The translations under genes and the position numbers were made by a program. Of a stretch of DNA of 64,000 bases, positions 17,991-45,862 are shown piece after piece. Numbering within the stretch: position 1 is the first letter of the stretch; each line of letters opens with the position of its first letter. The notes beneath the pieces are model-generated. The model did not search any database. It worked only from the letters and a program-made list of their open reading frames with translations, and was not told the origin of the DNA. Location of the stretch: NCBI RefSeq assembly GCF_036507355.1, contig NZ_AP027877.1. One strand, written 5' to 3'. Origin of the DNA: Escherichia coli. Lineage in GTDB: Bacteria > Pseudomonadota > Gammaproteobacteria > Enterobacterales > Enterobacteriaceae.

Positions 17991-18956
17991 TTATTTTTCT
18001 GCACTACGCAGGGATATTTCACCGCCCATCCAGGGTTTTATTATTCCATCCTGCTCAAGCAATAAAGCGCCCTGTTTGTCTATTCCGCGTGAAATGCCAA
18101 ATATTTCTTTATCACCAATGATAAGTTTCACTGGGCGATTAATAAAATTATCCAGCTTTTCCCAGCGCGAAAGATAAGGTGCCAATCCTTCTTGTTCGAA
18201 GAGTTCCAGCGCCGCGCGTAATTCACGTATTAGCATGGCCGCCAACGTATTACGATCGAGATTGATCCCCGCTTCCTGCAGCGTGATCCACCCCTGATTA
18301 ACGACACTCTCTTCAACACGACGCATTGCCATGTTGATCCCGGCTCCAATGACTATTTGCGCCGCATCGCCGGTTTTACCAGTCAGCTCCACAAGAATGC
18401 CTGCCAGCTTGCGATCCTGCAGATAGAGGTCATTAGGCCATTTGACACGAACTTTATCTGCTCCCAGCTTGCGTAATACTTCCGCCATCACGATACCGAT
18501 AACCAGACTTAAACCAATCGCCGCCGCCGGGCCTTGTTCCAGACGCCAGAACATCGACAAATATAAGTTTGCGCCAAAAGGCGAAAACCATTTCCGCCCC
18601 CGGCGACCACGGCCAGCCTGCTGGTATTCTGCAACGCAGGCATCGCCCGATTTAAGCTCTCCGATACGATCAAGAAGGTACTGATTCGTGGAGTCAATAA
18701 CTGGCAGCACGGCTACACTACCGCCATCCAGCTGACCCAATATCTGTTCAGCATTAAGTAACTGGATGGGCTCAGGCAGGCTGTATCCTTTACCCGGAAC
18801 GGTAAAGACATCAACGCCCCAGTCACGCAGTGTCTGAATGTGTTTATTAATAGCCGCCCGGCTCATTCCCAGCGTTTCACCCAACTGCTCGCCAGAGTGA
18901 AATTCACCGTTCGCTAACAGGGCAATCAATTTCAGTGGCACGGTGTTATCCTTCAT
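17991..18956 (-). CDS. birA: biotin--[acetyl-CoA-carboxylase] ligase / bio operon repressor BirA
   Basis: 321 aa ORF; its start overlaps the murB stop by 4 bp. Confidence 0.95.
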
Positions 18957-19981
18957 GAAATTGTCTCCACTGCGCTCACTTCACCTGATGCACCAATAAA
19001 GCGGACTTCAGGCTCAAGCCAGACATTAAATTTTTCACCCACTTTTTGTCTTACATGGTGTGCCAGTTGCACCACATCTTCGCTTTTTGCATTGTCTTCA
19101 TTAATGAGAACTAACGCCTGTTGACGGTGCACCGCAGCCCCACCCATTTGCATCCCTTTTAGCTGGCACTGATCGATAAGCCAACCTGCTGCCAGTTTTA
19201 CTGAACCATCCGCCTGGGGGTAATTTGGTGCTGTTGGAAATTGTGACAGTAATGCTTTAGCCGTTTCGGCAGATACAACAGGGTTTTTGAAGAAACTACC
19301 GGCATTGCCATTCACTTTTGGATCAGGGAGTTTGGTGGTGCGCATATGACACACCGCATTAAATACTTGCTGTGGCGTTACTGTTGTAGGCTCCAGACGA
19401 GTTAAGTCACCATACGTTAGTACAGGTTGCCACTCTTTTGGCAGACGCAGACCTACGGCTACAATGGCGAAGCGGTCCTGGTATTCATGTTTAAAAATAC
19501 TGTCGCGATAGCCAAAACGGCACTCTTTGGCAGTTAAGCGCACTTGCTTGCCTGTCGCCAGTTCAACACAATCAACATAAGCGCAAACTCGCTGTAATTC
19601 TACGCCATAAGCACCAATATTCTGGATAGGTGATGAGCCGACACAACCAGGAATTAATGCCAGATTTTCCAGACCAGGCATACCTTCCTGCAAAGTGTAT
19701 TTTACCAGGCGATGCCAGTTTTCTCCGGCTCCTACATGTAAATACCACGCATCAGGTTCATCATGAATTTCGATACCTTTGATCCGGTTGATGATCACCG
19801 TGCCGCGATAGTCTTCCAGAAAAAGTACATTACTTCCTTCACCCAGAATAAGAACGGGTTGCCCTTCTGCGGTTGCATGCTGCCAGGCATTGAGTAGTTG
19901 TTGTTCGTCTTCGGCACATACAATGTGCTGAGCATTATGATCAATGCCAAATGTGTTCCAGGGTTTTAAGGAGTGGTTCAT
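18953..19981 (-). CDS. murB: UDP-N-acetylenolpyruvoylglucosamine reductase
   Basis: 342 aa [345 protein letters not shown], directly downstream of the rrn operon. Confidence 0.95.
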
Positions 19982-20059
19982 AGCTGCTTTCCTGATGCAA
20001 AAACGAGGCTAGTTTACCGTATCTGTGGGGGGATGGCTTGTAGTTATGACGACAGGGAG

Positions 20060-20112
20060 AGTTTGTAGAAACGCAAAAAGGCCCAGTCTTCCGACCGGGC
20101 CTTCTGCTTAAT
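20060..20112 (-). terminator. rrn operon terminator following the 5S gene
   Basis: - strand reads CAAATTAAGCAGAAGGCCCGGTCGGAAGACTGGGCCTTTTTGCGTTTCTAC: a GC hairpin plus U-run. Confidence 0.75.
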
Positions 20113-20115
20113 TTG

Positions 20116-20235
20116 ATGCCTGGCAGTTCCCTACTCTCGCATGGGGAGACCCCACACTACCATCGGCGCTACGGCGTTTCACTTCTGAGTTCGGCATGGG
20201 ATCAGGTGGGACCACCGCGCTACGGCCGCCAGGCA
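20116..20235 (-). rRNA. rrfB: 5S ribosomal RNA
   Basis: 120 nt; reverse complement reads TGCCTGGCGGCCGTAGCGCGGTGGTCCCACCTGACCCCATGCCGAACTCAGAAGTGAAACGCCGTAGCGCCGATGGTAGTGTGGGGTCTCCCCATGCGAGAGTAGGGAACTGCCAGGCAT. Confidence 0.97.
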
Positions 20236-20328
20236 AATTCTGTTTTATCAGACCGCTTCTGCGTTCTGATTTAATCTGTATCAGGCTGAAAATCTTCTCT
20301 CAATCCGCCAAAACAGCTTCGGCGTTGT

Positions 20329-23232
<2,904 letters not shown>

Positions 23233-23424
23233 CACAACCCGAAGATGTTTCTTTCGATTCATCATCGTGTTGCGAAAATTTGAGAGACTCACGAACAACT
23301 CTCGTTGTTCAGTGTTTCAATTTTCAGCTTGATCCAGATTTTTAAAGAGCAAATATCTCAAACATCACCCGAAGATGAGTTTTGAGATATTAAGGTCGGC
23401 GACTTTCACTCACAAACCAGCAAG

Positions 23425-23500
23425 TGGCGTCCCCTAGGGGATTCGAACCCCTGTTACCGCCGTGAAAGGGCGGTGTCCTGGGCCTCTAGACGAAGGGGAC
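23425..23500 (-). tRNA. gltT: tRNA-Glu (anticodon UUC), rrn spacer tRNA
   Basis: Reverse complement reads GTCCCCTTCGTCTAGAGGCCCAGGACACCGCCCTTTCACGGCGGTAACAGGGGTTCGAATCCCCTAGGGGACGCCA. Confidence 0.95.
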
Positions 23501-23585: not shown

Positions 23586-25127
<1,542 letters not shown>

Positions 25128-25289: not shown

Positions 25290-25460
25290 TCAGCGGCGCG
25301 GGGTGTGCATAATACACTTTCCCACTACAGAGTCAAGCATTTATTTTTGCTTTCTCTGCCGGAATTCTCAGGAGAACCCCGCTGACCCGGCGGCGTGTTT
25401 GCCGTTGTTCCGTGTCAGTGGTGGCGCATTATAGGGAGTTATTCCGGCCTGACAAGAGGA
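25290..25460 (-). promoter_or_regulatory. rrn P1 and P2 promoters and leader (boxA antitermination region)
   Basis: - strand shows P1 TTGTCAGGCCGGAATAACTCCCTATAATGCGCCACCACT, P2 TTGACTCTGTAGTGGGAAAGTGTATTATGCACACC, and boxA TGCTCTTTAACAATTTATCA. Confidence 0.85.
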
Positions 25461-25500: not shown

Positions 25501-26358
25501 TCAGCCTAAAACTGCCAGTTTTTCGAGCGTTTCGAAGCCGTAACGCTGTAAAACGGGCAATAATTGTTCAGCTTCTGGCGTCATTGCCATACAAAAGGCA
25601 ATATTCGCATCGGCAGATTTTGCATCCGGGGCTTCATGTTCTAACAACCAGGCCGTTCGGCGAGCAATCGCTGCGCCAGAATCCACCAGCCGGGTTCCCT
25701 CTGGCAGCACTTGTAACAGTTCTTCTTGTAGTAGAGGGAAATGGGTGCAACCCAATACAACGGTATCTGGCGGCTCTTTCATTCTTAACCACGGGCGTAG
25801 GATACGTTTTAGTGCATCCAGAGAAACATCTTCGCCATGCAGCTTCGCTTCAGCCAACTCAACCATCTCTGCCGAGCCCAGCATTTCTATCTGGCATTCA
25901 TTAGCGAAACGCGCGATCAGCTCATGAGTATAAGAACGTTTAACTGTTCCGCGGGTTGCCAGTAATCCGACAATGCCATTTGCCGTCAGACGTGCAGCAG
26001 GTTTAATCGCCGGCACGACACCAACAACCGGGAAGTCGAACTTTTCGCGTAATGCAGGAAGTGAAACGGTACTGGCGGTGTTGCAAGCGACCACAGCCAG
26101 CGCAAGGGGATAACGTTCTTGCACCGCGGTGACAATTGCCACCACTCGCTCAACAATAAACGCTTCGCTTTTTTCGCCATACGGGAAAGCGACGTTATCG
26201 AAAGCATAAATGTAATGGAGATCCGGTAAGAGATGCCGGATCTCGTCATAGACCGACAACCCACCGACGCCGGAGTCAAACACCAGCACGGTGGGACGTG
26301 GTTCAGAAGGTGTAGCTGCCAGACAAGGTGTATTTCCGTCCTGCAGTTTGGTAGCCAT
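25501..26358 (-). CDS. murI: glutamate racemase
   Basis: Start set at [20 protein letters not shown] (285 aa); its 5' end overlaps the 3' end of btuB. Confidence 0.93.
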
Positions 26359-28147
26359 AGACTGTCTCATAATCTTTGTCGAACAGGTTGGCTATTTTAC
26401 CACGAACTGTCAGATGAGAGGTGACCGGATACGCAACCGCAAGATCCCACAAGCTCACACCGCCCATTTTAACGGTTTGATAAGGATAAGATGAGTAATC
26501 CTTATCATAGCGAGTGCCTAAATACTGATAAGTAATACCCCAGTCGAAGTCATACAACTGCCAGTCGAGCTGGTATTTCACCTGCTGTTTAGCACGGCGT
26601 AACAACGGCGTGTCGGTAATCGCATTGCGCGCATCGACATAATCATAACTCACAGTATGCGTCAGTGGTCCGGTATCAAAATTGGCGGTCGCCTCGACGC
26701 CCTTAATCCGCGCTTTCCCTTCGTTGTAATATTTCAGGGTGTGATCATCATAATCGATCAAGTCACTGACATCGTTACGATATCCGGAAATACGCCAGTT
26801 CACCCCAGCGGTTAAGCCTTCAAACGCGCCTTCCCACTGTTTGCTTTTCTCCGGGTCCAGATTTGGATTTCCGTAGAAGCCATACAGTTGCCCCAGATTT
26901 GGTGCCTTATAAGATGTCCCGTAGGAAGCAATGAAGCGATAACCTTCGATGAATTCCCAACCGGCGCTGGTTTGCCAGGTTCCATGACGACCAAACTGTG
27001 AGTTATCGTCGCTGCGTGCTGCGCCTTCAAAGGTAAAATCGCCGACTTGTTGCAGCCCGGTCAGATAGATGCCGGTATTACGTTGATCATATCCATCCTC
27101 AACATAACCTGTACCCGGCGTCGTAGTCTGTTTCTGCCAGTCGACACCCGCACCAATACTACCGTGACCAACGATGACATTGTTTGCCCACTGGACGGTG
27201 TATTGCTTCATCTCATCGAGCGTCGCCGACGAATCATAACGACCATAATGGGGATCGTAGTTGTAATCTTTGCTATGGCTATAGCTGGTAATGAGTTGTG
27301 ATTTAATCAGTTCGCCGTTATAGCGCAGCCCGGCGTCCCAACTTTGGCTATAGAGTTTACGGGTATCGACCAACGGTGAACCGGGAGAATAATACGCGTC
27401 ATAATTGGTACGGTTATCATAGCCATAGCCGCGCACAAAGCCGCTCCAGGCATCAGTAAAGTTATGCTCCAGCGCGCCATAAAGCGTTTTACTTAAAAAA
27501 CCATCGTTATCTGTCTGCGCTTGCGTTCCGGTATTACCATAGGCAACAACATCATAACCATGAGTATGGGCATAATCGCCCAACAACGTTACTCGTGTCT
27601 TATCACCCAGTTGTTGCTGTGTAGAGACATCATAGTTTTGATAACTATTGCTTCCCCACCCTGCTGAAATTTCCGTTCCGGGTTCATCGCGCGTCGTGAT
27701 GATATTCACCACCCCGCCTATTGCATCGGAACCATAAACGGCGGAGCGCGGCCCACGGATATATTCAACACGCTGGACAAGCGCAATCGGGAACTGGCTA
27801 AGGTCGGCAGAACCACTCACCCCCGCCAGATTCAGGCGTACGCCATCAATTAACACCAACACATGACTGGCATTTGTACCGCGAATAAAAATAGATGAGA
27901 GCTGACCTGAACCGCCGTTTTGGGTGATATCGACGCCCGGAAGACGGCGCAGCACATCATTAACCGAGGTCGACTGCCAGCGGTCGATATCCTGACGCGT
28001 CACAACGGTGGTTGGTGCAAGCACAGTGCTGCGCGGCTGTTCAAAACGGTTAGCAGTAACGACGAGAGTATCCGGGCTGGTATCCTGTGCCCAAGCGGAA
28101 AAGGCTGTGACAGAACACGCCGTCAGCAGCGAAGCTTTTTTAATCAT
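26303..28147 (-). CDS. btuB: TonB-dependent vitamin B12 outer membrane receptor
   Basis: Start set at [20 protein letters not shown] (614 aa); TonB box DTLVVTA; C-terminal ...YTLSGSYTF. Confidence 0.95.
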
Positions 28148-28386
28148 TGTAAAGCATCCACAATAGAAGAAGGATGCCGCAGGTTTCATCAATATTACGC
28201 GATGATGAGAACCAGATGCGACGTTGGCCGGCAGGTCTTCGGGCTTGGAGGGGTATCTAAGATACTAAGAGATGATGACTTCCCACCGAATGGCAGTGTC
28301 CGCATAACGCAATCATCGCACCTTTCCTTACCGCTGCGCGTCAGCTCCAGATTCGCACTGGATTCCCTATTAACTCACAGGACCGG
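28148..28386 (-). ncRNA. btuB 5' leader containing the cobalamin (B12) riboswitch
   Basis: - strand reads GCCGGTCCTGTGAGTTAATAGGGAATCCAGTGCGAATCTGGAGCTGACGCGCAGCGGTAAGGAAAGGTGCGATGATTGCGTTATGCGGACACTGCCATTCGGTGGGAAGTCATCATCTC..., matching the E. coli btuB leader as I remember it. Confidence 0.85.
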
Positions 28387-28515
28387 CAAGTGGATGCTAC
28401 AGGTTGTAACAAGTTACTGTCCAGACGTAGCTCACAAATAGGAATTCATCAAGATCTGGACATCTGATGAGCAATCCCTACAATCGCCGCGTACTTTAAT
28501 TTTTCAGGATACATC

Positions 28516-29616
28516 ATGACCCCCGAACACCTTCCAACAGAACAGTATGAAGCGCAGTTAGCCGAAAAAGTGGTACGTTTGCAAAGTATGATGGCACCGT
28601 TTTCTGACCTGGTTCCGGAAGTGTTTCGCTCGCCGGTCAGTCATTACCGGATGCGTGCGGAGTTCCGCATCTGGCACGATGGCGATGACCTGTATCACAT
28701 CATTTTCGATCAACAAACCAAAAGCCGTATCCGCGTGGATAGCTTCCCCGCCGCCAGTGAACTCATCAACCAGTTGATGACGGCGATGATTGCGGGTGTG
28801 CGTAATAATCCCGTTCTGCGCCACAAGTTGTTCCAGATTGATTACCTCACCACGCTGAGTAATCAGGCGGTGGTTTCCTTGCTGTACCATAAAAAGCTGG
28901 ATGATGAGTGGCGTCAGGAAGCGGAAGCCCTGCGCGATGCACTGCGAGCACAGAATCTGAATGTGCATCTGATTGGTCGGGCAACGAAAACCAAAATCGC
29001 GCTGGATCAAGATTACATCGACGAACGTCTGCCGGTCGCAGGGAAAGAGATGATCTACCGTCAGGTAGAAAACAGCTTTACCCAGCCGAACGCGGCGATG
29101 AATATTCAGATGCTGGAATGGGCGCTGGACGTAACCAAAGGCTCAAAAGGCGATTTACTGGAGCTGTACTGCGGCAACGGTAACTTCTCATTAGCCCTGG
29201 CGCGCAATTTTGATCGGGTATTAGCCACCGAAATCGCCAAGCCGTCAGTCGCTGCCGCGCAATACAATATTGCCGCTAACCATATTGATAACGTACAAAT
29301 TATTCGTATGGCGGCAGAAGAATTTACTCAGGCGATGAATGGCGTGCGCGAGTTTAACCGCCTGCAAGGGATCGACTTAAAGAGCTATCAGTGCGAAACC
29401 ATTTTTGTCGACCCGCCGCGCAGCGGTCTGGACAGTGAAACCGAGAAAATGGTGCAGGCGTATCCACGTATTCTGTATATCTCCTGCAATCCGGAAACGT
29501 TATGCAAGAATCTGGAAACATTAAGCCAGACGCACAAGGTCGAACGTCTGGCTCTGTTTGATCAGTTCCCCTACACGCACCATATGGAGTGCGGCGTATT
29601 ACTGACCGCGAAGTAA
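28516..29616 (+). CDS. trmA: tRNA (uracil54-C5)-methyltransferase
   Basis: 366 aa [369 protein letters not shown] with a SAM-methyltransferase fold. Confidence 0.95.
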
Positions 29617-29655
29617 AACCCATGCCGGATGCGCCAGCATCCGGCATGATACCGA

Positions 29656-30015
29656 TTACTCAGCAACTTCCTGCTTACGGTTACGCATCTTCGCGCCAAT
29701 CCAGAACACCATAATGACGGAGAGTACTGCCGGGAAGAAGTTAGAGCCGATATCCGGATATTCCGCACGAACTACCGTGCTGTACAGCAGTACGCCGAGA
29801 ATAAAACAGGCAGCTGCCAGACCCGGCAAGCCTACCGGCATGGTGCGATTAAGATAACGTTGATGCAGGCAGTAAACCGTCAGCACCAGGGAAATAATCG
29901 GGAATACAGAAAATGGCACAATGGAGCTAAACAGCGCTGCGAAAGTACCATTAATCGATAAGCCAGCAACCAACGCCAGCAGCAGCGTACCTCTATCTTG
30001 ATTTGCTTGTTTCAT
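29656..30015 (-). CDS. yijD: inner membrane protein YijD
   Basis: 119 aa hydrophobic ORF; its start overlaps the fabR stop (ATGA), consistent with a fabR-yijD operon. Confidence 0.9.
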
Positions 30016-30662
30016 TACTCGTCCTTCACATTTCCCGGAATAATTGCGGTTTTCTCTTGTTCACGGCGATACCAGTAATAAGCCCCTTTCGAAATCATTC
30101 GCAGTTGCAGTACCAGTCGCTCTTCTAATTGCCGACGTTGTTCGACGCCGACGTCCAACGCCTCGGCACCCGCACTGAAGACAATTGTCACCATTGCTTC
30201 GGCTTGCGCTTCAGTAAACGCACGCGGCATATGGTTTTCGAGTTCCAGATAGTCCGCAAGTTCCGCAATGAAGTGCTGAATTTCACGCGCAACGGCGGCA
30301 CGAAACGCAGCGGAGGTGCCGGAGCGTTCCCGCAATAATAACCGGAAGGCGTTAGGATTATTACCGATGAACTCCATAAATGTGGAGACCGAGGTGCGGA
30401 TCACACTCCCGCCTTTGGCGATACGCTGACGCGCCTGGCGCATGAGTTGGCGTAGCATTAAACCGCTCTCATCAACCATGGTCAGACCCAGTTCGTCTAC
30501 GTCGCGGAAATGCCGATAAAAAGAGGTGGGAGCAATGCCCGCTTCACGCGCCACTTCACGCAAACTCAGGCTGGCGAAGCTGCGTTCAGCACTTAATTGG
30601 CTAAATGCGGCTTCCACCAGCGAACGGCGGGTTTTTTCTTTTTGTTGCGCTCTTACGCCCAT
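30015..30662 (-). CDS. fabR: TetR-family repressor of unsaturated fatty acid biosynthesis FabR
   Basis: Start set at [13 protein letters not shown] (215 aa) with a TetR-type HTH; alternative upstream starts at 30719 and 30758 exist in frame. Confidence 0.85.
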
Positions 30663-30768
30663 CACGATGTCTGAATCCTTGCCAAAAGTACTGCTGGCAC
30701 TATACCAGAGAATGAACATACTGGATTGCTCCAGTATTGTGAATGAACGGTAACGCAATAAAACATAT

Positions 30769-32085
30769 TTACTGCAATTCTTTGGCCGGTTCTTTTACGT
30801 ACAACAACGCCAACATCGACAGCAACGTGCCTCCACCCAGATACCACGCCGGAGCCGTCAAACTATCCAGCAACACGATGGATTGCGTAGCGAAATATTG
30901 AGCAAAACCGCCAAAGATTGCCACACCAATGCTATAAACCAGCGCAAAACCCAATGCCCGAATCCGTTTCGGCAACAGTTCAGAGATCAACAACATCACT
31001 GGCACACCGCCAAGCGTGGTAAAGCTGACCATCACGAAAACCACCGTCAGCAACATGCCAGGGCTTGGGTAATTCACCAACAGCCAGAATGACGGCCAGC
31101 TACAGATCAGCACCATCACACGGGAGATTAAAATCAGCTTTTTACGCCCGACCGAATCGCACAACATCCCCACAAGCAGCGCACCCACAAACGTAATAAC
31201 GCCCGCCAGTAACATCGCTGCATGAGAATAATGTTGAGGCATCGCCAGATACTTCGCCGCCCAGGTGCCGTAATAAAAGAGGGAGATATAGGTTGCGACC
31301 GTGCTACCAATAGCGAGTAAAACGCCATTAACGATAGTCGCCTTATGTTGCAGGAGCAGAGAAAACGCGCTTTCGCTGGTAGCAGCTTTTTTATTGCGCA
31401 CAGGCTCAGGTACGTCATTTTCCAGACTCAAACGCAACCAACAGCCGACAGGCGCTAATAACACGCCAATAAAAAACGGCACACGCCAGCCCCATTCAGC
31501 CATGACGGTTTCTGAACCGGTCGCAAAGGGCAGCCATGCACTTAAACCTAAAGCGACAACACCTCCAAAAGTTGTTGCCAGGCCTTGAGTCGCCAGTGAC
31601 CAACTGCTGTAAAAACCGCGACGATTTGCCGGAGCTGATTCAACCAACAAAGACATTGAGGCACCGACTTCGCCTCCTGCCGCAACGCCCTGAATTAGAC
31701 GCGCTAGCACCAGCGTCGCGGTTCCCCAATAGCCCGCCGTCGCATACGTCGGCGCAATGCCAATCATCAACGTGCCGAGGCTCATCAGGGCAATAGTGAA
31801 CACCATCGCGGGTTTGCGTCCGAAACGATCGGCCCAGGCCCCGACGATAATTCCACCAAGCGGGCGCATAAAAAAACTCACGCCAAACGTTGCAAATGCC
31901 AGTAACAGCGCGACATTGTGATCAGCGCTGGGTGGGAAGAAAAGCGTACTGATATAGACCACAAAAAAGTTGTAAACGCCAAAATCAAAAAATTCGAGCG
32001 CATTGCCAAACGCCGAGGCAAAAATCACCCGCCTGCCACTAGGCTTTTTCTTCACACTCACGCTTTCATTTACGATCGCCGTCAT
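30769..32085 (-). CDS. MFS transporter, metabolite:H+ symporter (MHS) type (ProP/KgtP/ShiA-like)
   Basis: 438 aa, multi-span hydrophobic profile, with the MFS/MHS signature [13 protein letters not shown]; not expected between fabR and sthA in the K-12 order. Confidence 0.8.
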
Positions 32086-32128
32086 TCCATGTTCCTTGCC
32101 ATAAAGAGTTGTTGTGTTGTTTTTTTAT

Positions 32129-33295
32129 TTATTGCAGCCAGGCTTCTACCAGTGCGCCCCAGTAGCTGCTTGCCGGGATCAGACTTGCATCGTTGAAGTC
32201 GTAACCCGGGTTATGCACCATGCAGGAACCTTCCCCGACATCGCCATTACCGAATAACAGGAAACCGCCTTTGGGTTGGGCTTCCAGCATGAAAGAGAAA
32301 TCCTCACTGCCCATCAGGGGCTTGATGCCAAACTCGGCCCGATCTTCACCAAACGTTTTACACGCCACCTGCCAGGCGAAGCGCGCCATCTCCTCGTCAT
32401 TCACTAATACCGGTGTACCGTTAACATGCGTAACCTCAGCCGTAGCACCAAAGCTGGCAGCCTGGGCCTGTGCCAAAGCAGGAATACGGGTCAGAAGAAG
32501 TTGTCGGGTATCGCGGCTAAGAGAGCGGACGCTGATTTTCATCTCAGCACTGTCAGGAATGACGTTAGCCGCCTCCCCTGCAACAATGCTGCCAACGGTA
32601 ATTACCGCCGCTTCCAGCGGATCGACATTGCGTGACACAATGCTTTGTAATGCGGTGGTGATATGTGCGGCAACCAGCACCGGATCGATGGCTTTGTGCG
32701 GGATCGCACCGTGTCCGCCACAACCACGAACCGTAATATGGAACTGATCCATTGACGCCATCAGTGCCCCTGGCTGGAAATAAAACTTACCCACCGGCAG
32801 ACCGGGCATGTTATGCATGCCGAAAATGACATCGCAGGGGAAACGATCAAAAAGCCCCTCTTTAACCATGATCTCACCGCCGTTAATCATCTCTTCCGCA
32901 GGCTGGAAGATAAGACGTAACGTGCCGTTAAAACGGCGGGTTTCGGCAAAATAACGCGCGGCCCCCAGCAGTATGGTGGTATGCCCGTCATGCCCGCAGG
33001 CGTGCATTAAACCAGGATGTTTACTGGCCCAGGGCTTGCCACTATTTTCATAAATCGGCAACGCATCCATATCCGCCCGCAGGCCAATACTTTTCTCTCC
33101 GTCGCCCACTTTTAACGTGGCTACCACGCCGGTTGTCGCCAGCCCTTGCTCAACCTTATAGCCCCACTGGCGCAGCTTTTCCGCAACCAAAGCACTGGTT
33201 TTAAATTCTTGTAATCCCAGCTCCGGGTTTTCGTGGATCTGATGGCGGATCTCACGCAGTTCTTCCTCAAACCCTCGAATATAGTGTTCGATCAT
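32129..33295 (-). CDS. M20D-family amidohydrolase (hippurate hydrolase / N-acyl-amino-acid amidohydrolase-like)
   Basis: 388 aa with the metal-binding motif MHACGHDGHT typical of M20D amidohydrolases; 43 bp upstream of the MFS gene on the same strand, so likely one operon. Confidence 0.8.
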   Translation of the reverse strand: MIEHYIRGFEEELREIRHQIHENPELGLQEFKTSALVAEKLRQWGYKVEQGLATTGVVATLKVGDGEKSIGLRADMDALPIYENSGKPWASKHPGLMHACGHDGHTTILLGAARYFAETRRFNGTLRLIFQPAEEMINGGEIMVKEGLFDRFPCDVIFGMHNMPGLPVGKFYFQPGALMASMDQFHITVRGCGGHGAIPHKAIDPVLVAAHITTALQSIVSRNVDPLEAAVITVGSIVAGEAANVIPDSAEMKISVRSLSRDTRQLLLTRIPALAQAQAASFGATAEVTHVNGTPVLVNDEEMARFAWQVACKTFGEDRAEFGIKPLMGSEDFSFMLEAQPKGGFLLFGNGDVGEGSCMVHNPGYDFNDASLIPASSYWGALVEAWLQ

Positions 33296-33624
33296 CGGCT
33301 ATTCCTTTATTCACTTATAAACAGGCTAATTAACGGATTTTATTGATGGTATAAATACAAATAACCCATCAATATAAAATATTTATATGTTTGTTTTATA
33401 AGAAGATTTCATAAAGACAATAACAAAAAAGCACGCTTCGGCAAGATAAAACTATCAGCCATAATAAAAAGCGATTAATAGTGAATAAATGTGTTAAGAA
33501 GGAGGCAGACAAAGCAAAGGCCGCTCACGCTATAGCCAGATTAATGACGGGGATCAATTGGCTTACCCGCGATAAAATGTTACCATTCTGTTGCTTTTAT
33601 GTATAAGAACAGGTAAGCCCTACC

Positions 33625-35025
33625 ATGCCACATTCCTACGATTACGATGCCATAGTAATAGGTTCCGGCCCCGGCGGCGAAGGCGCTGCAATGGGCCTGG
33701 TTAAGCAAGGTGCGCGCGTCGCAGTTATCGAGCGTTATCAAAATGTTGGCGGCGGTTGCACCCACTGGGGCACCATCCCGTCGAAAGCTCTCCGTCACGC
33801 CGTCAGCCGCATTATAGAATTCAATCAAAACCCACTATACAGCGACCATTCCCGACTGCTCCGCTCTTCTTTTGCCGATATCCTTAACCATGCCGATAAC
33901 GTGATTAATCAACAAACGCGCATGCGTCAGGGATTTTACGAACGTAATCACTGTGAAATATTGCAGGGGAACGCTCGCTTTGTTGACGAGCATACGTTGG
34001 CGCTGGATTGCCCGGACGGCAGCGTTGAAACACTAACCGCTGAAAAATTTGTTATTGCCTGCGGCTCTCGTCCATATCATCCAACAGATGTTGATTTCAC
34101 CCATCCACGCATTTACGACAGCGACTCAATTCTCAGCATGCACCACGAACCGCGCCATGTACTTATCTATGGTGCTGGAGTGATCGGCTGTGAATATGCG
34201 TCGATCTTCCGCGGTATGGATGTAAAAGTGGATCTGATCAACACCCGCGATCGCCTGCTGGCATTTCTCGATCAAGAGATGTCAGATTCTCTCTCCTATC
34301 ACTTCTGGAACAGTGGCGTAGTGATTCGTCACAACGAAGAGTACGAGAAGATCGAAGGCTGTGACGACGGTGTAATCATGCATCTGAAGTCGGGTAAAAA
34401 ACTGAAAGCCGACTGTCTGCTCTATGCCAACGGCCGCACCGGTAATACCGATTCGCTGGCATTACAGAACATTGGGCTGGAAACTGACAGTCGCGGACAG
34501 CTGAAGGTCAACAGCATGTATCAGACCGCACAGCCGCACGTTTACGCGGTGGGCGACGTGATTGGTTATCCGAGCCTGGCATCAGCGGCCTATGACCAGG
34601 GGCGCATTGCCGCGCAGGCGCTGGTAAAAGGCGAAGCCACCGCACATCTGATTGAAGATATCCCTACCGGCATTTACACCATCCCGGAAATCAGCTCTGT
34701 GGGCAAAACCGAACAGCAGCTGACCGCGATGAAAGTGCCATATGAAGTGGGCCGCGCCCAGTTCAAACATCTGGCACGTGCACAAATCGTCGGCATGAAC
34801 GTGGGCACGCTGAAAATTTTGTTCCATCGGGAAACAAAAGAGATTCTGGGCATTCACTGCTTTGGCGAGCGCGCTGCCGAAATTATTCATATCGGTCAGG
34901 CGATTATGGAACAGAAAGGTGGCGGCAACACTATTGAGTACTTCGTCAACACCACCTTTAACTACCCGACGATGGCGGAAGCCTATCGGGTAGCTGCGTT
35001 AAACGGTTTAAACCGCCTGTTTTAA
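33625..35025 (+). CDS. sthA: soluble pyridine nucleotide transhydrogenase
   Basis: 466 aa [469 protein letters not shown]; FAD/NAD-binding flavoprotein disulfide reductase fold. Confidence 0.95.
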
Positions 35026-35925
35026 CACTTTATCGAAATGGCCATCCATTCTTGCGCGGATGGCCTCTGCCAGCTGCTCATAGCGGCTGCGCAGCGGTGA
35101 GCCAGGACGATAAACCAGGCCAATAGTGCGGCGTGGTTCCGGCTTAATGCACGGCAGATAAACAACCCCATCGCGTTTGCGCTCCGGCGGCACAGCCAGC
35201 GCAGGCAGTAAAGTGATCCCGCTACCTGCCGCCACCATGTTGCGCAGAGTTTCCAGGCTGGTCGCGCGGAAGTGTGTATCTTCATCCGCCCCGGCTTCAA
35301 AACAGAAACCCATTGCCTGATCGCGCAAACAGTGACCATCTTCCAGCATCAGCAGTTTTTCCCCAGCCAGATCGGCCATCGGTACGCATTCGCGGTTCGC
35401 CCACGGGTGGTCTTCATAGATAGCCAGCAACATTGGCTCATCAAACAACGGCACTTCAATGAATGCTTCGCTCTCTTTCACCAGCGCGAGGATCACGCAA
35501 TCGAGTTTGCCGCTGTCCAGTTGCGCCAGTAACTGGTGGGTCTGTGCTTCATGCAGATACATTTCCAGCTTTGGAAAGGTCTGGTGCAGCATCGGGATAA
35601 TATGCGGTAGCAGGTACGGTCCAACCGTGGGAATCAAACCAATATGCAGCGGTCCGGACATCGTCTCGCCCTGCTGGCTTGCCATCTCTTTAAGGACTTT
35701 CACCTCACGCAGCACGGTACGCGCCTGATCCACCAGCAGCATTCCCGCCTGGGTGAACAACACTTTACGGCTGGTCCGCTCCAGCAACATCACGCCCAGC
35801 TCATCTTCCAGCTTACGAATTTGCCCGCTAAGCGTCGGCTGGCTAACGTGGCAGGAATCTGCCGCACGCCGAAAATGGCGGTGTTCAGCCAATGCCACCA
35901 GGTACTCAAGATCACGAATATTCAT
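35008..35925 (-). CDS. oxyR: LysR-family oxidative stress regulator OxyR
   Basis: Start set at [55 protein letters not shown] (305 aa); its 3' end overlaps the sthA 3' end by 18 bp (convergent). Confidence 0.95.
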
Positions 35926-36020
35926 TATCCATCCTCCATCGCCACGATAGTTCATGGCGATAGGTAGAATAGCAATGAACGATTATCCCTATCAAGCATT
36001 CTGACTGATAATTGCTCACA

Positions 36021-36135
36021 GAAACGGAGCGGCACCTCTTTTAACCCTTGAAGTCACTGCCCGTTTCGAGAGTTTCTCAACTCGAATAACTAAAGCCAAC
36101 GTGAACTTTTGCGGATCTCCAGGATCCGCTTTTTT
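36021..36135 (+). ncRNA. oxyS: OxyS small regulatory RNA
   Basis: GAAACGGAGCGGCACCTCTTTTAACCCTTGAAGTCACTGCCCGTTTCGAGAGTTTCTCAACTCGAATAACTAAAGCCAACGTGAACTTTTGCGGATCTCCAGGATCCGCTTTTTTTT, divergent from oxyR and ending in a terminator hairpin plus U-run. Confidence 0.9.
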
Positions 36136-36191
36136 TTGCCATAAAAAAGCCCGGCGATAAGCCAGGCTCAAATTTGTACATATAAATGTTC

Positions 36192-37565
36192 TTACCCCAA
36201 CCGCGCCCTTGCAAAAGCAATCGCCTGCGCCACCTGCTGCGGTGAGACGCCGCCTTTTGCCGCACGCTTGTCGAGGCACGATTGCAGCGACAAAATCGGA
36301 TAGACATCTTCGCCAATCACCGGGCTGAATTTCTGCAACTCGTCGAGCGGCAGTTCTTCCAGCGGTTTGCCCTGACGAATGGCTTCCACCACCGCTTCAC
36401 CAACAATATGGTGCGCCTCGCGGAAAGGTACGCCTTTCGCCACCAGGTAATCCGCCAGTTCGGTGGCGTTGGCGTAACCCTGCTGAGCCGCTTCCTGGCA
36501 ACGTGGACGTTTCACCTGGATGCCGTCCAGCACCAGCGCCGCCATATGCAGGCAGTCCAGCCAGGTATCGAGCGCGTCGAACAGACCTTCTTTGTCTTCC
36601 TGCATATCTTTGTTGTAAGCCAGCGGCAAACCTTTCAGCGTCATCATCATGCCGGTTAACGCGCCCTGCACCCGACCGCATTTACCGCGAATCAGCTCCA
36701 GCGCATCCGGGTTTTTCTTCTGCGGCATTAATGATGAACCGGAAGTCACGCGGTCAGAAAGCTCCACAAACCCCGCTTCGCCGGTGTTAAAGAAAATCAG
36801 ATCTTCAGCAAAACGCGACAGATGCACCATGCCGATAGCGGCAGCCGACAGCAGTTCCAGCACGTGGTCACGGTCAGAAACGCTGTCGAGACTGTTACGG
36901 GTCGCTGAAGCAAAGCCCAGCCAGCCAGCTAACTGTTCACGGTCGATCTCATAAGCCGTTCCCGCCAGCGCGCCACAGCCTAACGGACTGACATCCAGAC
37001 GCTTAAGCGCATCCTGCAAACGGCTTTCATCACGCGCCAGCATCTCAACATAGGCCAGGCACCAGTGCGCGAACGTCACCGGCTGGGCGCGTTGCAGGTG
37101 AGTGTAACCTGGCATGACCGCGTCCTGATTGTTTTGTGCGGTTTCCACCAGCGCCGATTGCAGCTGTCGGTTAGCCGTCAGTAACTCGCTAACGGTATCT
37201 TTGCACCACAGTTTCAGGTCAGTCGCTACCTGATCATTACGACTACGCCCGGTATGCAGCTTTTTGCCTAACTGGCCCACTTTGTCGATCAGTTTCCCTT
37301 CCACCCAGCTATGGATATCTTCGGCGTCGCTTTCAAGGATTTGTTGTGGCCTGGCGCGAACATCTTCCAGCAGCACGTTCAGCGCCTCTTCCAGTTGCGC
37401 CTGCTCTTCTGCGGTTAACACGCCGACCGTTACCAGGGCTTTGGACCAGGCCACAGAGCCAACAATATCCTGCTCCGCCAGACGGTAATCAAAGCGCAGT
37501 GAGTCGTTGAATTGTTTGAACCGTTGATCTGCTGCCTGGGTAAAACGCCCGCCCCAAAGTGCCAT
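36192..37565 (-). CDS. argH: argininosuccinate lyase
   Basis: 457 aa [460 protein letters not shown]; fumarate-lyase signature [12 protein letters not shown]. Confidence 0.96.
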
Positions 37566-37625
37566 AACTCTGTTTCCTTATTTTGAAATTCAATGCCGGA
37601 AAGCTGCGCCTCCGGCCAACAAAAC

Positions 37626-38402
37626 TTAAGCTAAAATCCGCGTACCCATCGGCATACCGTTAAACAGTGCCGGAAGCTGCTCCGCATGACGCCAGGAGGC
37701 GATATCTACCGGACGGCCCAACGTGCGCGCAGCATCCAGCGCCGCGTTCACTTTCACTATCATGCCGTCAGTAATAATGCCCTGCTCAATCAGTTGTTCT
37801 GCTTTCGCGGCGGTCATTTCGGCAATACGTTGCCCTTTGCCGTCGAGAATGCCACTGACGTCGGAGAGCAAAATCAGATCCGCGCCCAGCGTTGCCGCCA
37901 GCGCCGTTGCCGCCTGGTCGGCATTGACGTTCATCAGTTGCCCTTCGTCTGTTACGCCAATGGAGCTGACCACCGGCAGATAACCGTTCTCCAGCAAGGA
38001 GTTGATAAGCTTAGGCGAACCTGGCTGCGCCAGTCCAACATGACCTAACTCTTCATCAAGCTGGGTCACTTTGACGCTGTCGCCGTCACCGAGAAACAAA
38101 CCTACGGCCGCAATCTGATGTTTCTTCGCCCATGCCAGCAGGGTTTTATTTGCCGTTCCCGCCAGTGCTCCAGTGATAATGTCTATCTGATCCGCAGGCG
38201 TCACCCGCAGGCCATTTTTCTTTTTCACCGGCAGATTCAGCCCTTTCATCAGCTCATCCACCACGCAACCGCCGCCGTGGACAATCACCAGCGGACGCTG
38301 ATGTGACTCACGATAATTCACCAGTGCGCTAAACAGACGCTCCAGCGCCTCTTCACTATCCAGCAGTACGCCACCCAGTTTGATAATTAATGGATTCATC
38401 AT
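37626..38402 (-). CDS. argB: acetylglutamate kinase
   Basis: Start set at [14 protein letters not shown] (258 aa); amino-acid kinase fold. Confidence 0.93.
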
Positions 38403-38409
38403 TGCACCC

Positions 38410-39414
38410 TTAAATAAGAGACTGCGTTTCCGCATAGCCGAAACGAATATTGGCGCACTGTACCGCTTGTGCCGCCGCGCCTTTCAGTAAGTTGTCTTCG
38501 GTCGCCACAATAATCAGATGTTCGCCCTGAACGGCAAACCCGATATCGCAAAATGGTAGCCCAACGACATTTTTCAGCGCCGGAACGCCTTTGTCATACA
38601 GCCGCACCAGCGGTTTATGGGCATACGCCTGCTGTAACACTTGCGCGACTTGCGCCTGGGTCACACCCGGTTTCAGGCGGCAGGTAATGGTTTCGAGAAT
38701 GCCGCGCGGGAAATTGCCCAGATGCGGGGTGAAGATAACGTCAGCACCGAGGTGTGTGGCGATCTCTGGTTGATGGCGATGAGTAAAGACGCCATACGGT
38801 TGCAGGCTAACTTCACAAAAACTATTTGAAATCGCTGCCTTACGTCCTGCACCGCTCACGCCGCTGGTGGCGTTGATCACCGGCCACTGATTGAGGTCAA
38901 GAAGATCGGCATCAATCAACGGTTTCAGCGCCAGCTGTGCCGCCGTCGGATAACAGCCTGGCACCGCAATCAAATTCGCTTCTTTTAATTTATTACCGCT
39001 CCACTCCGCCAGACCGTAGGCTGCCTGTTCCAGCAGTTCCGGGTATTGATGGGTAAAGCCGTAATATTTTTCATAGAAGGTGGCGTCGTTAACACGAAAC
39101 GCGCCGGAAAGGTCGAACACCACGCAGCCCGCTTCAAGAAACTGCGGCGCTAAATCGTGGCTAACTTCATGGGCGGTGGCGAGAAACACTACGTCCACCC
39201 CTGGGCTAAACTCGCTGATATCCGACATCGGCTGCAACGGCAGATCAACGATGCCTTTTAGCTGCGGATGCAAATCGGAGATTAACTTTCCCGCATCATT
39301 GCTTTGCGCTGAAACAGTCAAAGCGGTTATGTTCATATGCGGATGGCGATTTACATAGGTCACTAGCTCTGCGCCAGCGTAGCCGCTGGCACCCACAATC
39401 AGCGTATTCAACAT
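38410..39414 (-). CDS. argC: N-acetyl-gamma-glutamyl-phosphate reductase
   Basis: 334 aa [337 protein letters not shown]. Confidence 0.95.
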
Positions 39415-39499
39415 CGGGGCTATTCACCTTCTTATGTCTGGTTGCCAGGTTAAACGTAAAACATTCACCTTACGGCTGGTGGGTTTTATTACGCTCAAC

Positions 39500-39545
39500 G
39501 TTAGTGTATTTTTATTCATAAATACTGCATGAATATTGATACTAT
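39500..39545. promoter_or_regulatory. ARG boxes (ArgR operators) in the divergent argE / argCBH control region
   Basis: tATTCATaaatacTGcATGAATattgat contains two adjacent copies of the TnTGAATwwwwATTCAnw-like ARG box. Confidence 0.65.
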
Positions 39546-39567
39546 CATGACCAGAGGTGTGTCAACA

Positions 39568-40719
39568 ATGAAAAACAAATTACCGCCATTTATCGAGATT
39601 TACCGTGCTCTGATTGCCACACCTTCAATAAGCGCCACGGAAGAGGCACTCGATCAAAGCAATGCAGATTTAATCACTCTGCTGGCGGACTGGTTTAAAG
39701 ATTTAGGCTTCAATGTGGAAGTGCAGCCTGTGCCAGGAACTCGCAACAAATTTAATATGCTGGCAAGTACCGGACAGGGGGCTGGCGGCTTGTTGCTGGC
39801 GGGGCATACCGATACAGTGCCATTTGATGACGGTCGCTGGACGCGCGATCCGTTTACACTGACGGAGCATGACGGCAAGCTTTACGGCTTAGGCACCGCC
39901 GACATGAAAGGCTTTTTTGCGTTTATCCTTGATGCGCTACGCGATGTCGACGTCACGAAACTGAAAAAACCGCTCTACATTCTGGCGACTGCTGATGAAG
40001 AAACCAGTATGGCCGGAGCGCGTTATTTTGCCGAAACTACCGCCCTGCGCCCGGATTGCGCCATCATTGGCGAACCGACGTCACTACAACCGGTACGCGC
40101 ACATAAAGGTCATATCTCTAACGCCATCCGTATTCAGGGCCAGTCGGGGCACTCCAGCGATCCAGCACGCGGAGTTAACGCTATCGAACTAATGCACGAC
40201 GCCATCGGGCATATTTTGCAATTGCGCGATAACCTGAAAGAACGTTATCACTACGAAGCGTTTACCGTGCCATACCCTACGCTCAACCTCGGGCATATTC
40301 ACGGTGGCGACGCTTCTAACCGTATTTGCGCTTGCTGTGAGTTGCATATGGATATTCGTCCGCTGCCTGGCATGACACTCAATGAACTTAATGGTTTGCT
40401 CAACGATGCATTGGCTCCGGTGAGCGAACGCTGGCCGGGTCGTCTGACGGTCGACGAGCTGCATCCGCCGATCCCTGGCTATGAATGCCCACCGAATCAT
40501 CAACTGGTTGAAGTGGTTGAGAAATTGCTCGGAGCAAAGACCGAAGTGGTGAATTACTGTACCGAAGCGCCGTTTATTCAAACGTTATGCCCGACGCTGG
40601 TTCTGGGGCCGGGTTCAATCAATCAAGCCCATCAGCCTGATGAATATCTGGAGACGAGGTTTCTCAAGCCCACCCGCGAACTGATCACCCAGGTGATTCA
40701 CCATTTTTGCTGGCATTAA
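39568..40719 (+). CDS. argE: acetylornithine deacetylase
   Basis: Start set at [26 protein letters not shown] (383 aa); M20-family deacetylase. Confidence 0.95.
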
Positions 40720-40722
40720 AAC

Positions 40723-40946
40723 GTAGGCCGGATAAGGCGCTCGCGCCGCATCCGGCGCTGTTGCCAAACTCCAGTGCCGCAATAATGTCGGATGCGATGC
40801 TTGCGCATCTTATCCGACCTACAGTGACTCAAACGATGCCCAACCGTAGGCCGGATAAGGCGCTCGCGCCGCATCCGGCACTGTTGCCAAACTCCAGTGC
40901 CGCAATAATGTCGGATGCGATACTTGCGCATCTTATCCGACCTACA
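40723..40946. repeat. REP/BIME cluster: a roughly 101 bp unit containing palindromic units, duplicated in tandem (period 123 bp)
   Basis: gtaggccggataaggcgctcgcgccgcatccggc...gtcggatgcgat.cttgcgcatcttatccgacctaca occurs twice, at 40723 and 40846, with two mismatches. Confidence 0.9.
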
Positions 40947-41193
40947 CCTTTGGTGTTACTTGAGGCGATTTTTTAACATTCCCATAAGTTACGCTTATTT
41001 AAAGCGTCGTGAATTTAATGACGTAAATTCCTGCTATTTATTCGTTTGCTGAAGCGATTTCGCAGCATTTGACGTCATCGCTTTTACGTGGCTTTATAAA
41101 AGACGACGAAAAGCAAAGCCCGAGCATATTCGCGCCAATGCGACGTGAAGGATACAGGGCTATCAAACGATAAGATGGGGTGTCTGGGGTAAT

Positions 41194-43845: not shown

Positions 43846-43859
43846 TCTTCCTCTCCTGC

Positions 43860-43892
43860 AAACCCTCGTGCTTTTGCGCGAGGGTTTTCTGA
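43860..43892 (+). terminator. ppc intrinsic terminator
   Basis: aaaccctcgtgc-tttt-gcgcgagggtttt hairpin followed by a T-run, 15 nt after the ppc stop. Confidence 0.8.
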
Positions 43893-44026
43893 AATACTTC
43901 TGTTCTAACACCCTCGTTTTCAATATATTTCTGTCTGCATTTTATTCAAATTCTGGATATCCCTTCAGATATCCTTAAGGAATTGTCGTTACATTCGGCG
44001 ATATTTTTTCAAGACAGGTTCTTACT

Positions 44027-45760: not shown

Positions 45761-45832
45761 ATGACCTTTGTATCGCGTCTGGCGCTATTTGCCGGATGCG
45801 ATACTGTCGCAATGTTTACATCGAACTCCCCT

Positions 45833-45862
45833 CAGGCCACACTTTTCAGGTGGCCTTTTTTA
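45833..45862 (+). terminator. eptC intrinsic terminator
   Basis: aggccacc-tttt-... read as ggccacacttttcaggtggcc followed by tttttt. Confidence 0.7.

What the first reader, a model, noticed from the sequence alone, without database searches (positions are those of the whole stretch)
20040..20115. Single, chimeric-looking terminator directly after the 5S gene, unlike the T1-T2 arrangement I recall for K-12 rrnB
From memory, K-12 rrnB carries rrfB followed by T1, a 5S-like remnant, then T2, giving about 300 bp before murB. Here the 5S 3' end is followed directly by CAAATTAAGCAGAAGGCC (T2-like flank), then a T1-like stem-loop CCGGTCGGAAGACTGGGCC and TTTTTGCGTTTCTAC, and murB begins only 134 bp after the 5S gene. 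That is consistent with recombination between the 5S gene and the downstream remnant, or with a different ancestral state. The P2 promoter also differs at a few positions from the K-12 sequence I remember.
Basis: partly seen in the sequence, partly recalled or inferred. Interest (0 to 1): 0.25.

Follow-up and report, generated by a model that had tools for sequence, protein, structure and literature searches.

The report
Single-hairpin rrnB terminator, common natural allele
The ribosomal RNA operon rrnB in this window ends in one terminator hairpin instead of the two (T1 and T2) known from E. coli K-12, but this is an old allele carried by roughly four in ten E. coli, including O157:H7, so it is ordinary.

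Summary
On the minus strand, 5S rRNA ends at 20116. One hairpin follows (GGCCCGGTC-GGAA-GACTGGGCC, 20080-20101) with a U-tract (20069-20079). murB starts at 19981, 134 nt after 5S, against 300 nt in K-12.

The hairpin really is mosaic relative to K-12:
- 5' flank: 18/18 identical to T2.
- Apical 14 nt: 12/14 identical to rrnB T1, 13/14 to rrnA/rrnD T1.
- Tail: 24/24 identical to T2.

It is not a product of recombination between the 5S gene and the 5S remnant. That event predicts 5S followed by an exact T2, with a 132-nt intergenic region. That allele exists in other strains (AR434, AR437, a BL21 derivative), and the window differs from it.

The window allele is identical in O157:H7 and XH990. 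Close variants occur in IAI39, UTI89, E. whittamii, E. albertii, Citrobacter amalonaticus and Kosakonia.

The K-12 tandem sits at rrnB in only 2516 of 5426 complete E. coli genomes. A single terminator is the rule across Enterobacteriaceae: 43 of 48 species where the junction is visible.

The 165-bp T1-spacer-remnant module sits at rrnA, rrnB and rrnD in K-12 but only at rrnD in the O157 genomes listed. This suggests it spread between operons by gene conversion.

Verdict: a functional intrinsic terminator, an ordinary allele, low interest.

The parts
20116..20235 (-). 5S rRNA gene (rrfB), the last gene of the rrnB operon
   Evidence: Rfam RF00001 matches 20118-20233 at 96.8 bits. The ends were set by alignment to the 120-nt K-12 rrfB annotation. 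The window carries a private C>T at 20201 (5S position 35).
20102..20115 (-). 5S 3' trailer CAAATTAAGCAGAA. It is an A/U-rich single-stranded stretch followed by the 5' side of the outer stem, and is inferred to hold the RNase E 'b' cleavage region of the 5S precursor.
   Evidence: Together with the next four bases (GGCC, 20098-20101) it forms the 18-nt 5' flank, which is 18/18 identical to the K-12 T2 flank and 13/18 to the T1 flank. The same CAAATTAAGCAG follows 5S in K-12 rrnC and rrnH. The RNase E role is inferred from established knowledge of 9S RNA processing.
20080..20101 (-). Terminator hairpin: 9-bp stem GGCCCGGTC/GACTGGGCC, with one G-U pair, closed by a GGAA (GNRA) tetraloop
   Evidence: Fold of -26.1 kcal/mol, z = -4.65. 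It is the only strong hairpin in the 134-nt intergenic region. All 13 pairs are kept in 12 variants, and two pairs show compensatory changes.
20073..20107 (-). Extended stem: GCAGAA pairs with UUUU(U)GC around the core hairpin, with one bulged U
   Evidence: The minimum-free-energy structure has about 15 pairs. The same outer stem occurs in K-12 T2 (third sequence).
20069..20079 (-). U-tract TTTTTGCGTTT, the release site of the intrinsic terminator
   Evidence: Read directly from the sequence. The tail that begins at the hairpin's last four bases (GGCC, 20080-20083) is identical to the K-12 T2 tail at 24/24 positions.
19982..20068 (-). murB leader. It holds the block CAAGCC-N14-ATACGGTAAACTAG (20011-20040), conserved across Enterobacteriaceae and probably the murB promoter, and a Shine-Dalgarno AGGAAAG.
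   Evidence: The block is conserved in every outgroup locus printed. The promoter role is inferred; the consensus scan found no sigma-70 match.
18953..19981 (-). murB coding sequence (UDP-N-acetylenolpyruvoylglucosamine reductase, 342 aa)
   Evidence: Translation. RefSeq annotation of the matching loci. The identical protein is recorded in 2167 blocks of the public collection.
25309..25336 (-). rrnB P2 promoter: -35 TTGACT at 25336-25331, -10 TATTAT at 25314-25309, with three spacer substitutions relative to K-12
   Evidence: Two of the three spacer changes are rrnG-type bases. The C>T at 25324 was not seen in any complete E. coli genome (best match has 1 mismatch).

Best explanation
The element is the natural Rho-independent (intrinsic) terminator of rrnB, in one of three allele classes that coexist in E. 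coli. RNA polymerase finishing 5S transcribes a 14-nt A/U-rich trailer. It then transcribes a GC-rich 9-bp hairpin with a GNRA tetraloop, which A-U pairs extend to about 15 bp. It releases the transcript in the U-tract UUUUUGCGUUU about 40-47 nt after 5S, and this insulates murB-birA from rRNA transcription. The hairpin also forms the 3' stem-loop of the 5S precursor, which RNase E and exonucleases then trim (inferred). The mosaic look does not come from a recent accident in a K-12-like ancestor. T1, T2 and this hairpin all belong to one paralogous family of '5S 3' end plus terminator' units that share the outer stem and flanks and differ in the apical part. The single-terminator arrangement is the older state at rrnB. 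The K-12 tandem arose when a 165-bp module (T1, spacer, 5S 3' remnant) was copied into rrnB from another rrn operon by gene conversion, probably in the phylogroup A/B1 lineage. Shown here: the anatomy, the fold, the population and cross-species distribution, and the location of the module in other operons. Inferred: actual termination, the processing role, and the direction and mechanism of the conversion.
For: Anatomy and fold. The position is right for a terminator: directly after the last gene of rrnB, on the same strand, and ahead of murB.

Distribution in E. coli:
- The 101-nt stretch is at least 99% identical in 448 complete-genome records, including O157:H7 at 100%.
- All 8 public genomes read that encode the identical MurB have the same arrangement, and 5 are identical over 200 nt.
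- The long K-12 form is at rrnB in 2516 of 5426 genomes.
- An evenly spaced sample of 39 genomes gives 17 long, 16 T1-class single and 6 T2 single.
- T1-class single alleles occur in O157 (phylogroup E), IAI39 (F) and UTI89 (B2). The long form occurs in K-12 (A), IAI1 and O111 (B1). Phylogroup assignments are from my own knowledge.

Outgroups:
- 43 of the 48 Enterobacteriaceae species whose 5S end is visible upstream of murB have one terminator.
- E. whittamii, E. albertii, C. amalonaticus ku-bf3 and Kosakonia oryzendophytica have a T1-class hairpin with the TTTTTGCG tail.

Hairpin under constraint:
- 100% of 156 pair cells are standard pairs.
- The window's G-U pair lies between A-U (UTI89) and G-C (E. 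albertii).
- T1's U-G pair lies between C-G and U-A (E. whittamii).

Module mobility:
- T1-spacer-remnant-T2 sits at rrnA, rrnB and rrnD in K-12. The rrnA and rrnB copies shown differ at one base, and identity ends right after GGCCTTTTTGC.
- The O157-type genomes listed have a single copy, and the one inspected is at rrnD.
- The same module occurs at rrnB in Kluyvera, Enterobacter and C. portucalensis.
Against: Termination was not measured, and the simple terminator scan reported nothing here. That scan also missed K-12 T2, so its silence carries little weight. The polarity of the apical hairpin class is unresolved. Other Escherichia lineages (sp. E1V33, strain E69) and most other genera carry a T2-class apical hairpin as their single terminator. 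The T1-class apical part could therefore have been imported into an ancestral T2-class terminator. Draft outgroup contigs often end inside the junction, and 31 of 79 loci show no 5S end. Covariation support is modest: 21-29 of 500 shuffles reach the observed values, and the sequences are related. Three literature searches found no paper that describes or tests this polymorphism.
Confidence: 0.85

Rival explanations
1. The allele is a deletion derivative of a K-12-like T1-T2 region, made by unequal homologous recombination between the 3' end of the 5S gene and the 5S remnant in front of T2.
For: The repeat AACTGCCAGGCATCAAAT occurs twice in K-12, 165 bp apart. The predicted product exists in nature: 5S directly followed by an exact T2, with a 132-nt intergenic region, in AR434, AR437, WCHEC035148 and Rosetta2-DE3.
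Against: The window does not match the predicted product. Its apical 14 nt (CGGTCGGAAGACTG) are T1-class (12-13 of 14) and do not align with the T2 apical ATCCTGACGGAT. Its intergenic region is 134 nt, not 132. The allele also occurs in species and phylogroups where no long form was found at rrnB.
Confidence: 0.04
2. The allele descends from an ancient long form by deletion between the 3' arms of T1 and T2 (shared GGCCTTT). That leaves the T1 hairpin joined to the T2 tail. The 5' flank later changed to the T2-like version by mutation or a short conversion patch.
For: Such a deletion yields exactly a T1-class hairpin followed by TTTTTGCGTTT. C. amalonaticus and UTI89 carry flanks (AAAGCGAAAGGCC, TTAGCGAAAGGCC) close to the AAAGCGAAAGGC flank that precedes T1 in Enterobacter sp. 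CC120223-11, which fits the predicted product. Long forms exist in several genera, so the module is old.
Against: It needs two events to produce the window's 18/18 T2-type flank. The flanks are not diagnostic, because GCGAAAGGCC also precedes T2-class hairpins at K-12 rrnD and rrnG. A single terminator is the majority state in 43 of 48 species.
Confidence: 0.1
3. The short form is an assembly artefact, a collapse of the two 5S-end repeats.
For: Repeats at rrn ends are a known source of assembly errors. Many draft contigs break at this point.
Against: The identical arrangement is present in hundreds of independent complete genomes. It has its own distinct hairpin sequence, which a collapse of T1 onto T2 could not create.
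Confidence: 0.01

Closest known systems
E. coli K-12 rrnB T1 (first hairpin of the T1T2 terminator region; Brosius et al. 1981, cited from my own knowledge)
   Same: Same locus and same position directly after 5S. The apical stem-loop is 12/14 identical (13/14 to the rrnA/rrnD copies of T1). Both have a 9-bp stem and a GNRA tetraloop.
   Different: T1 has a different outer stem (AAAACGAAAGG/CCUUUCGUUUU), which makes a 20-bp hairpin of -36 kcal/mol. Its tail is UUUCGUUUUAUCUG, and the 117-bp spacer and T2 follow it. The window hairpin folds at -26 kcal/mol and carries the T2-type flank and tail.
E. coli K-12 rrnB T2
   Same: The 5' flank (18/18), the outer stem, the U-tract and the downstream murB leader (24/24) are all identical. 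Stability is similar, -22.7 versus -26.1 kcal/mol.
   Different: The apical part differs: ATCCTGACGGAT in T2, CGGTCGGAAGACTG in the window. In K-12, T2 follows a 5S remnant rather than the 5S gene itself.
rrnB terminator of E. coli O157:H7 and strain XH990
   Same: O157:H7 is 100% identical over the 101-nt terminator stretch. O157 strain G5295 and XH990 are identical to the window over the first 90 nt from the 5S 3' end that were printed. XH990 is 99.9% identical over 701 nt. This is the same allele.
   Different: The terminator does not differ. The window adds a private 5S C35>U and a private P2 spacer base.
K-12 rrnG distal end, and the 132-nt rrnB allele of AR434 and the BL21 derivative
   Same: Same architecture: one terminator directly after 5S, with no spacer and no remnant.
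   Different: These carry the T2-class apical hairpin GGCCATCCTGACGGATGGCC.

Membership tests
Intrinsic (Rho-independent) transcription terminator | GC-rich RNA stem-loop that is stable relative to background | tested here: met
   The hairpin has a 9-bp core stem with 7 G-C pairs, extended to about 15 bp. It folds at -26.1 kcal/mol, z = -4.65, and 0 of 200 shuffles fold as well.
Intrinsic (Rho-independent) transcription terminator | U-rich tract immediately 3' of the stem | tested here: met
   UUUUUGCGUUU starts at the base after the stem, at 20079-20069. The consensus scan did not flag it, but that scan also missed K-12 T2.
Intrinsic (Rho-independent) transcription terminator | Located at the 3' end of a transcription unit, on the transcribed strand | tested here: met
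   It begins 15 nt after the 5S 3' end, on the rrnB strand and ahead of murB.
Intrinsic (Rho-independent) transcription terminator | Base pairing conserved through sequence change | tested here: met
   100% of 156 pair cells are standard pairs in 12 variants, and 2 pairs changed on both sides. The statistical weight is modest: 21-29 of 500 shuffles reach the observed values.
Intrinsic (Rho-independent) transcription terminator | Transcripts actually end there | not testable with these tools
   This needs 3'-end mapping or a single-round transcription assay.
K-12-type rrnB T1-T2 tandem terminator region | Two terminator hairpins in tandem | tested here: not met
   There is only one hairpin in the 134-nt intergenic region, and no T2-class apical hairpin anywhere in the window.
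K-12-type rrnB T1-T2 tandem terminator region | 117-bp spacer with a 5S 3' remnant between the hairpins | tested here: not met
   The spacer motif is absent at up to 3 mismatches. There is only one AACTGCCAGGCATCAAAT in the window.
Product of 5S/remnant unequal recombination (132-nt allele) | 5S followed by the exact T2 hairpin GGCCATCCTGACGGATGGCC | tested here: not met
   The window has GGCCCGGTCGGAAGACTGGGCC, with a 134-nt rather than 132-nt intergenic region.

The most novel reading that the evidence does not exclude
The three rrnB distal alleles (T1-class single, T2-class single, and the T1-spacer-T2 tandem) may differ in how much of the very heavy rRNA transcription leaks into murB-birA-coaA. 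Exchange of the 165-bp module and of the apical hairpins between rrn operons would then be a selected way of tuning that insulation, rather than neutral concerted evolution. A side point for synthetic biology: the widely used K-12 T1T2 part would be a lineage-specific derived arrangement, not the arrangement typical of the species.
Probability: 0.12. Interest if true: 0.35.

Novelty: already known. Interest (0 to 1): 0.12.

Why it matters
It matters little for biology. It is one natural allele of a well-understood element, present unchanged in O157:H7 and hundreds of other sequenced genomes. Two points are useful. First, the K-12 rrnB T1-T2 arrangement, the standard terminator part in cloning vectors, is at rrnB in only 46% of complete E. 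coli genomes and appears to be the derived state. K-12 is therefore not a safe reference for what is normal at rrn operon ends. Second, the ends of rrn operons evolve as exchangeable modules (the 5S 3' end plus a terminator), and this can mimic fresh recombination events in any single genome.

Tried and rejected
- The consensus promoter/terminator scan of 19600-20600 found nothing. I gave this no weight because the same scan on K-12 detects T1 but misses T2. The cause is probably that the stem extends into the T-run.
- Three full-text literature searches found no description of this polymorphism: rrnB/terminator/gene conversion, rrnB/T1T2/5S rRNA/murB, and rrnB T1/T2 termination efficiency. 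Two further searches failed on term length. Reading PMC6735719, PMC5179076 and PMC4330394 gave context on the rrnB-murB-tufB layout only.
- I tried to identify the source strain. The best 20-kb match among complete E. coli genomes is only 99.1% (strains A16 and ES5), followed by O157 and O145 at 98.6%. The lineage is near phylogroup E but is not represented exactly.
- I considered counting the 132-nt allele exactly and dropped it, because the search tool joins the 5S and T2 pieces across the 165-bp module. I used an evenly spaced sample instead.
- I considered and rejected three origins: simple 5S/remnant recombination, assembly collapse, and a second hidden terminator in the murB leader. The fold shows only one strong hairpin.
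- Salmonella and E. fergusonii were not clearly among the 80 loci returned, so they could not be used as named outgroups.

Full report
WHAT IS THERE

The window carries the rrnB operon on the minus strand:
- 16S at 23586-25127
- tRNA-Glu at 23425-23500
- 23S at 20329-23231, and 5S at 20118-20233 by Rfam

These are followed by murB, whose ATG is at 19981. Further on come the thrU-tyrU-glyT-thrT tRNA genes. This is the layout of E. coli rrnB, and every RefSeq E. coli locus that matches is annotated 23S, rrf, murB.

Alignment to the K-12 annotation puts the mature 5S 3' end at 20116. After it comes CAAATTAAGCAGAA, then the hairpin GGCCCGGTC-GGAA-GACTGGGCC (20101-20080), then TTTTTGCGTTT (20079-20069), and then 87 nt of murB leader.

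COMPARISON WITH K-12

K-12 has 300 nt between 5S and murB. That stretch holds T1, a 117-bp spacer that ends in a copy of the last bases of 5S (AACTGCCAGGCAT) plus CAAAT, and then T2.

The window lacks this block. It has no spacer motif, no second 5S end and no T2-type apical hairpin anywhere.

The 'chimeric' description also holds when measured:

| Segment | vs T2 | vs T1 |
|---|---|---|
| 5' flank | 18/18 | 13/18 |
| Apical 14 nt | not alignable | 12/14 (rrnB), 13/14 (rrnA/rrnD) |
| Tail | 24/24 | 13/26 |

IS IT A TERMINATOR?

- The RNA folds into a 9-bp GC-rich stem with a GNRA tetraloop, extended by A-U pairs to about 15 bp. Its energy is -26.1 kcal/mol (z = -4.65). T2 gives -22.7 and T1 gives -36.0.
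- It is the only strong hairpin between 5S and murB.
- A U-tract follows it directly.
- Across 12 variants of this hairpin class, from several operons and genera, all 156 pair cells are standard pairs. Two positions show full compensatory series. The window's G-U pair sits between A-U (UTI89) and G-C (E. albertii). T1's U-G pair sits between C-G and U-A (E. whittamii). The statistical weight is modest.
- The consensus scan did not flag the site, but it also misses K-12 T2.

I conclude that this is a working intrinsic terminator. Actual termination remains untested.

HOW COMMON IS IT?

- The 701-nt junction is found in 5391 of 5426 complete E. coli genomes, either as one piece of about 700 nt or as two pieces spanning about 866 nt.
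- A query that only the long form can cover shows the K-12 tandem at rrnB in 2516 of 5426 genomes, or 46%.
- The window's exact allele (at least 99% over 101 nt) is in 448 records, including O157:H7 at 100%. A further 1186 records match at 90-99%.
- Reading individual loci gives three allele classes:
  1. T1-class single, 133-134 nt: the window, O157, XH990, IAI39, UTI89, Ec394-330266, FCI1.
  2. T2 single, 132 nt: AR434, AR437, WCHEC035148, Rosetta2-DE3.
  3. Tandem, 300 nt: K-12. IAI1 and O111 are placed here on their roughly 866-nt, two-piece matches.
- In the evenly spaced sample, the split is 16: 6: 17.
- All eight public genomes read that encode the identical MurB protein have the single form, and five are identical to the window over 200 nt.

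Recombination between the 5S gene and the remnant predicts 5S joined to an exact T2. That product exists: it is class 2. The window is not that allele.

The mechanism is therefore real in E. coli but does not explain this locus.

OUTGROUPS

A MurB-anchored scan of one genome per species returned 80 Enterobacteriaceae loci, of which 79 were analysed.

- In 48 of them the 5S 3' end is visible upstream of murB.
- 43 of those have one terminator directly after 5S.
- 5 have tandem or long forms: Kluyvera genomosp. 3, Enterobacter sp. CC120223-11, Enterobacter sp. JUb54, Raoultella ornithinolytica and C. portucalensis.
- Most single terminators are T2-class, GSCCATCC-NNNN-GGATGGSC.
- The T1-class hairpin with the TTTTTGCG tail, the window's configuration, recurs in E. 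whittamii, E. albertii (contig cut inside the flank), C. amalonaticus ku-bf3 and Kosakonia oryzendophytica. In the last, the 47 nt after 5S differ from the window at only two positions.
- Escherichia sp. E1V33 and strain E69 have T2-class single terminators.

The single architecture is therefore ancestral with good confidence. Which apical class came first is not resolved.

WHERE THE K-12 TANDEM COMES FROM

- In K-12 the T1-spacer-remnant-T2 module is present at rrnA, rrnB and rrnD.
- The rrnA and rrnB copies shown differ at one base. Their identity stops right after GGCCTTTTTGC, where the locus-specific flanks begin.
- rrnG has 5S followed directly by a T2-class hairpin.
- rrnE has an unrelated terminator.
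- rrnC and rrnH have distal tRNAs, but share the CAAATTAAGCAG trailer.
- The spacer is found in 3975 of 5426 genomes, with a median of two copies. The O157-type genomes listed carry a single copy, and in the one inspected it lies at rrnD.

E. coli phylogroups E, F and B2 carry the T1-class single allele, and A and B1 carry the tandem (phylogroup assignments are from my own knowledge). The simplest reading is that the module was copied from another operon into rrnB and rrnA in the A/B1 lineage by gene conversion. Class 2 would then be a secondary loss, or possibly a precursor. This direction is inferred, not proven.

SIDE REMARK ON P2

- The window differs from K-12 rrnB at three positions in the P2 spacer (25324, 25318, 25316) and at 25364, 25478 and 25138. 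Both hexamers of P1 and P2 are unchanged.
- No complete E. coli genome has the 91-nt P2 stretch exactly. The best match, with one mismatch, is at rrnG of another strain.
- Four of the differences from K-12 rrnB (25364, 25318, 25316, 25138) are rrnG-type bases. The C>T at 25324 is private.
- This again looks like exchange between operons plus one private substitution.

VERDICT

The element is an ordinary and old allele of the rrnB intrinsic terminator, identical in O157:H7. It is not a novel chimera.

Its only wider value is as a reminder that K-12's T1-T2 tandem is a lineage-specific arrangement, and that rrn operon ends evolve as exchangeable modules. Interest is low.

Noticed in passing
window 25309-25336 (also 25364, 25478, 25138), minus strand: The rrnB P2 spacer differs from K-12 at 25324, 25318 and 25316, and the hexamers are intact. 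No complete E. coli genome of 5426 has the 91-nt stretch exactly. The closest, with 1 mismatch, is at rrnG of strain 214-4. Four differences from K-12 rrnB are rrnG-type bases, which suggests gene conversion between operons. The C>T at 25324 is private.
   Followed up: partly
window 20201, minus strand (5S rRNA position 35): The window's 5S gene has T where K-12, XH990, UTI89 and O157 all have C (CCTGATCCC versus CCTGACCCC). It is probably the single mismatch to XH990 over 701 nt, which is 99.9% identical. It is either a private variant or a sequencing error.
   Followed up: no
window 20011-20040, minus strand: The block CAAGCC-N14-ATACGGTAAACTAG in the murB leader is conserved across all Enterobacteriaceae genera inspected. 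It is probably the murB promoter (-10 TAAACT), although the sigma-70 consensus scan did not report it.
   Followed up: no
L013 (E. coli Rosetta2-DE3, NZ_CP083274.1) 230-420: The 5S gene upstream of murB is truncated at its 5' end and directly preceded by an incomplete SDR oxidoreductase pseudogene. The body of rrnB therefore appears deleted or rearranged in that assembly.
   Followed up: no
L018 (Escherichia sp. MOD1-EC7003) 1-421: About 300 extra bases lie between the terminator and the murB leader. They follow an rrnA/rrnG-type T2 tail and a REP-like sequence and include an ORF fragment that starts ATGGACGAAAAACAATTACAG, possibly a transposase remnant.
   Followed up: no
L064 and L050 versus K-12 T2 (L012): Some T2-class hairpins carry the loop in inverted form (GGCCATCC-GTCA-GGATGGCC versus GGCCATCC-TGAC-GGATGGCC). 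This pattern is expected from template switching within a quasi-palindrome.
   Followed up: no
window 26000-46000: The best 20-kb match among 5426 complete E. coli genomes is only 99.1% (strains A16 and ES5), followed by O157:H7 and O145:H28 at 98.6%. The source lineage is near phylogroup E but is not closely represented, and could be a Shigella-labelled genome.
   Followed up: partly
window 23239-23347, minus strand: An Rfam StyR-44 match (122.9 bits) lies in the spacer just upstream of 23S. This is the usual location for that family.
   Followed up: no
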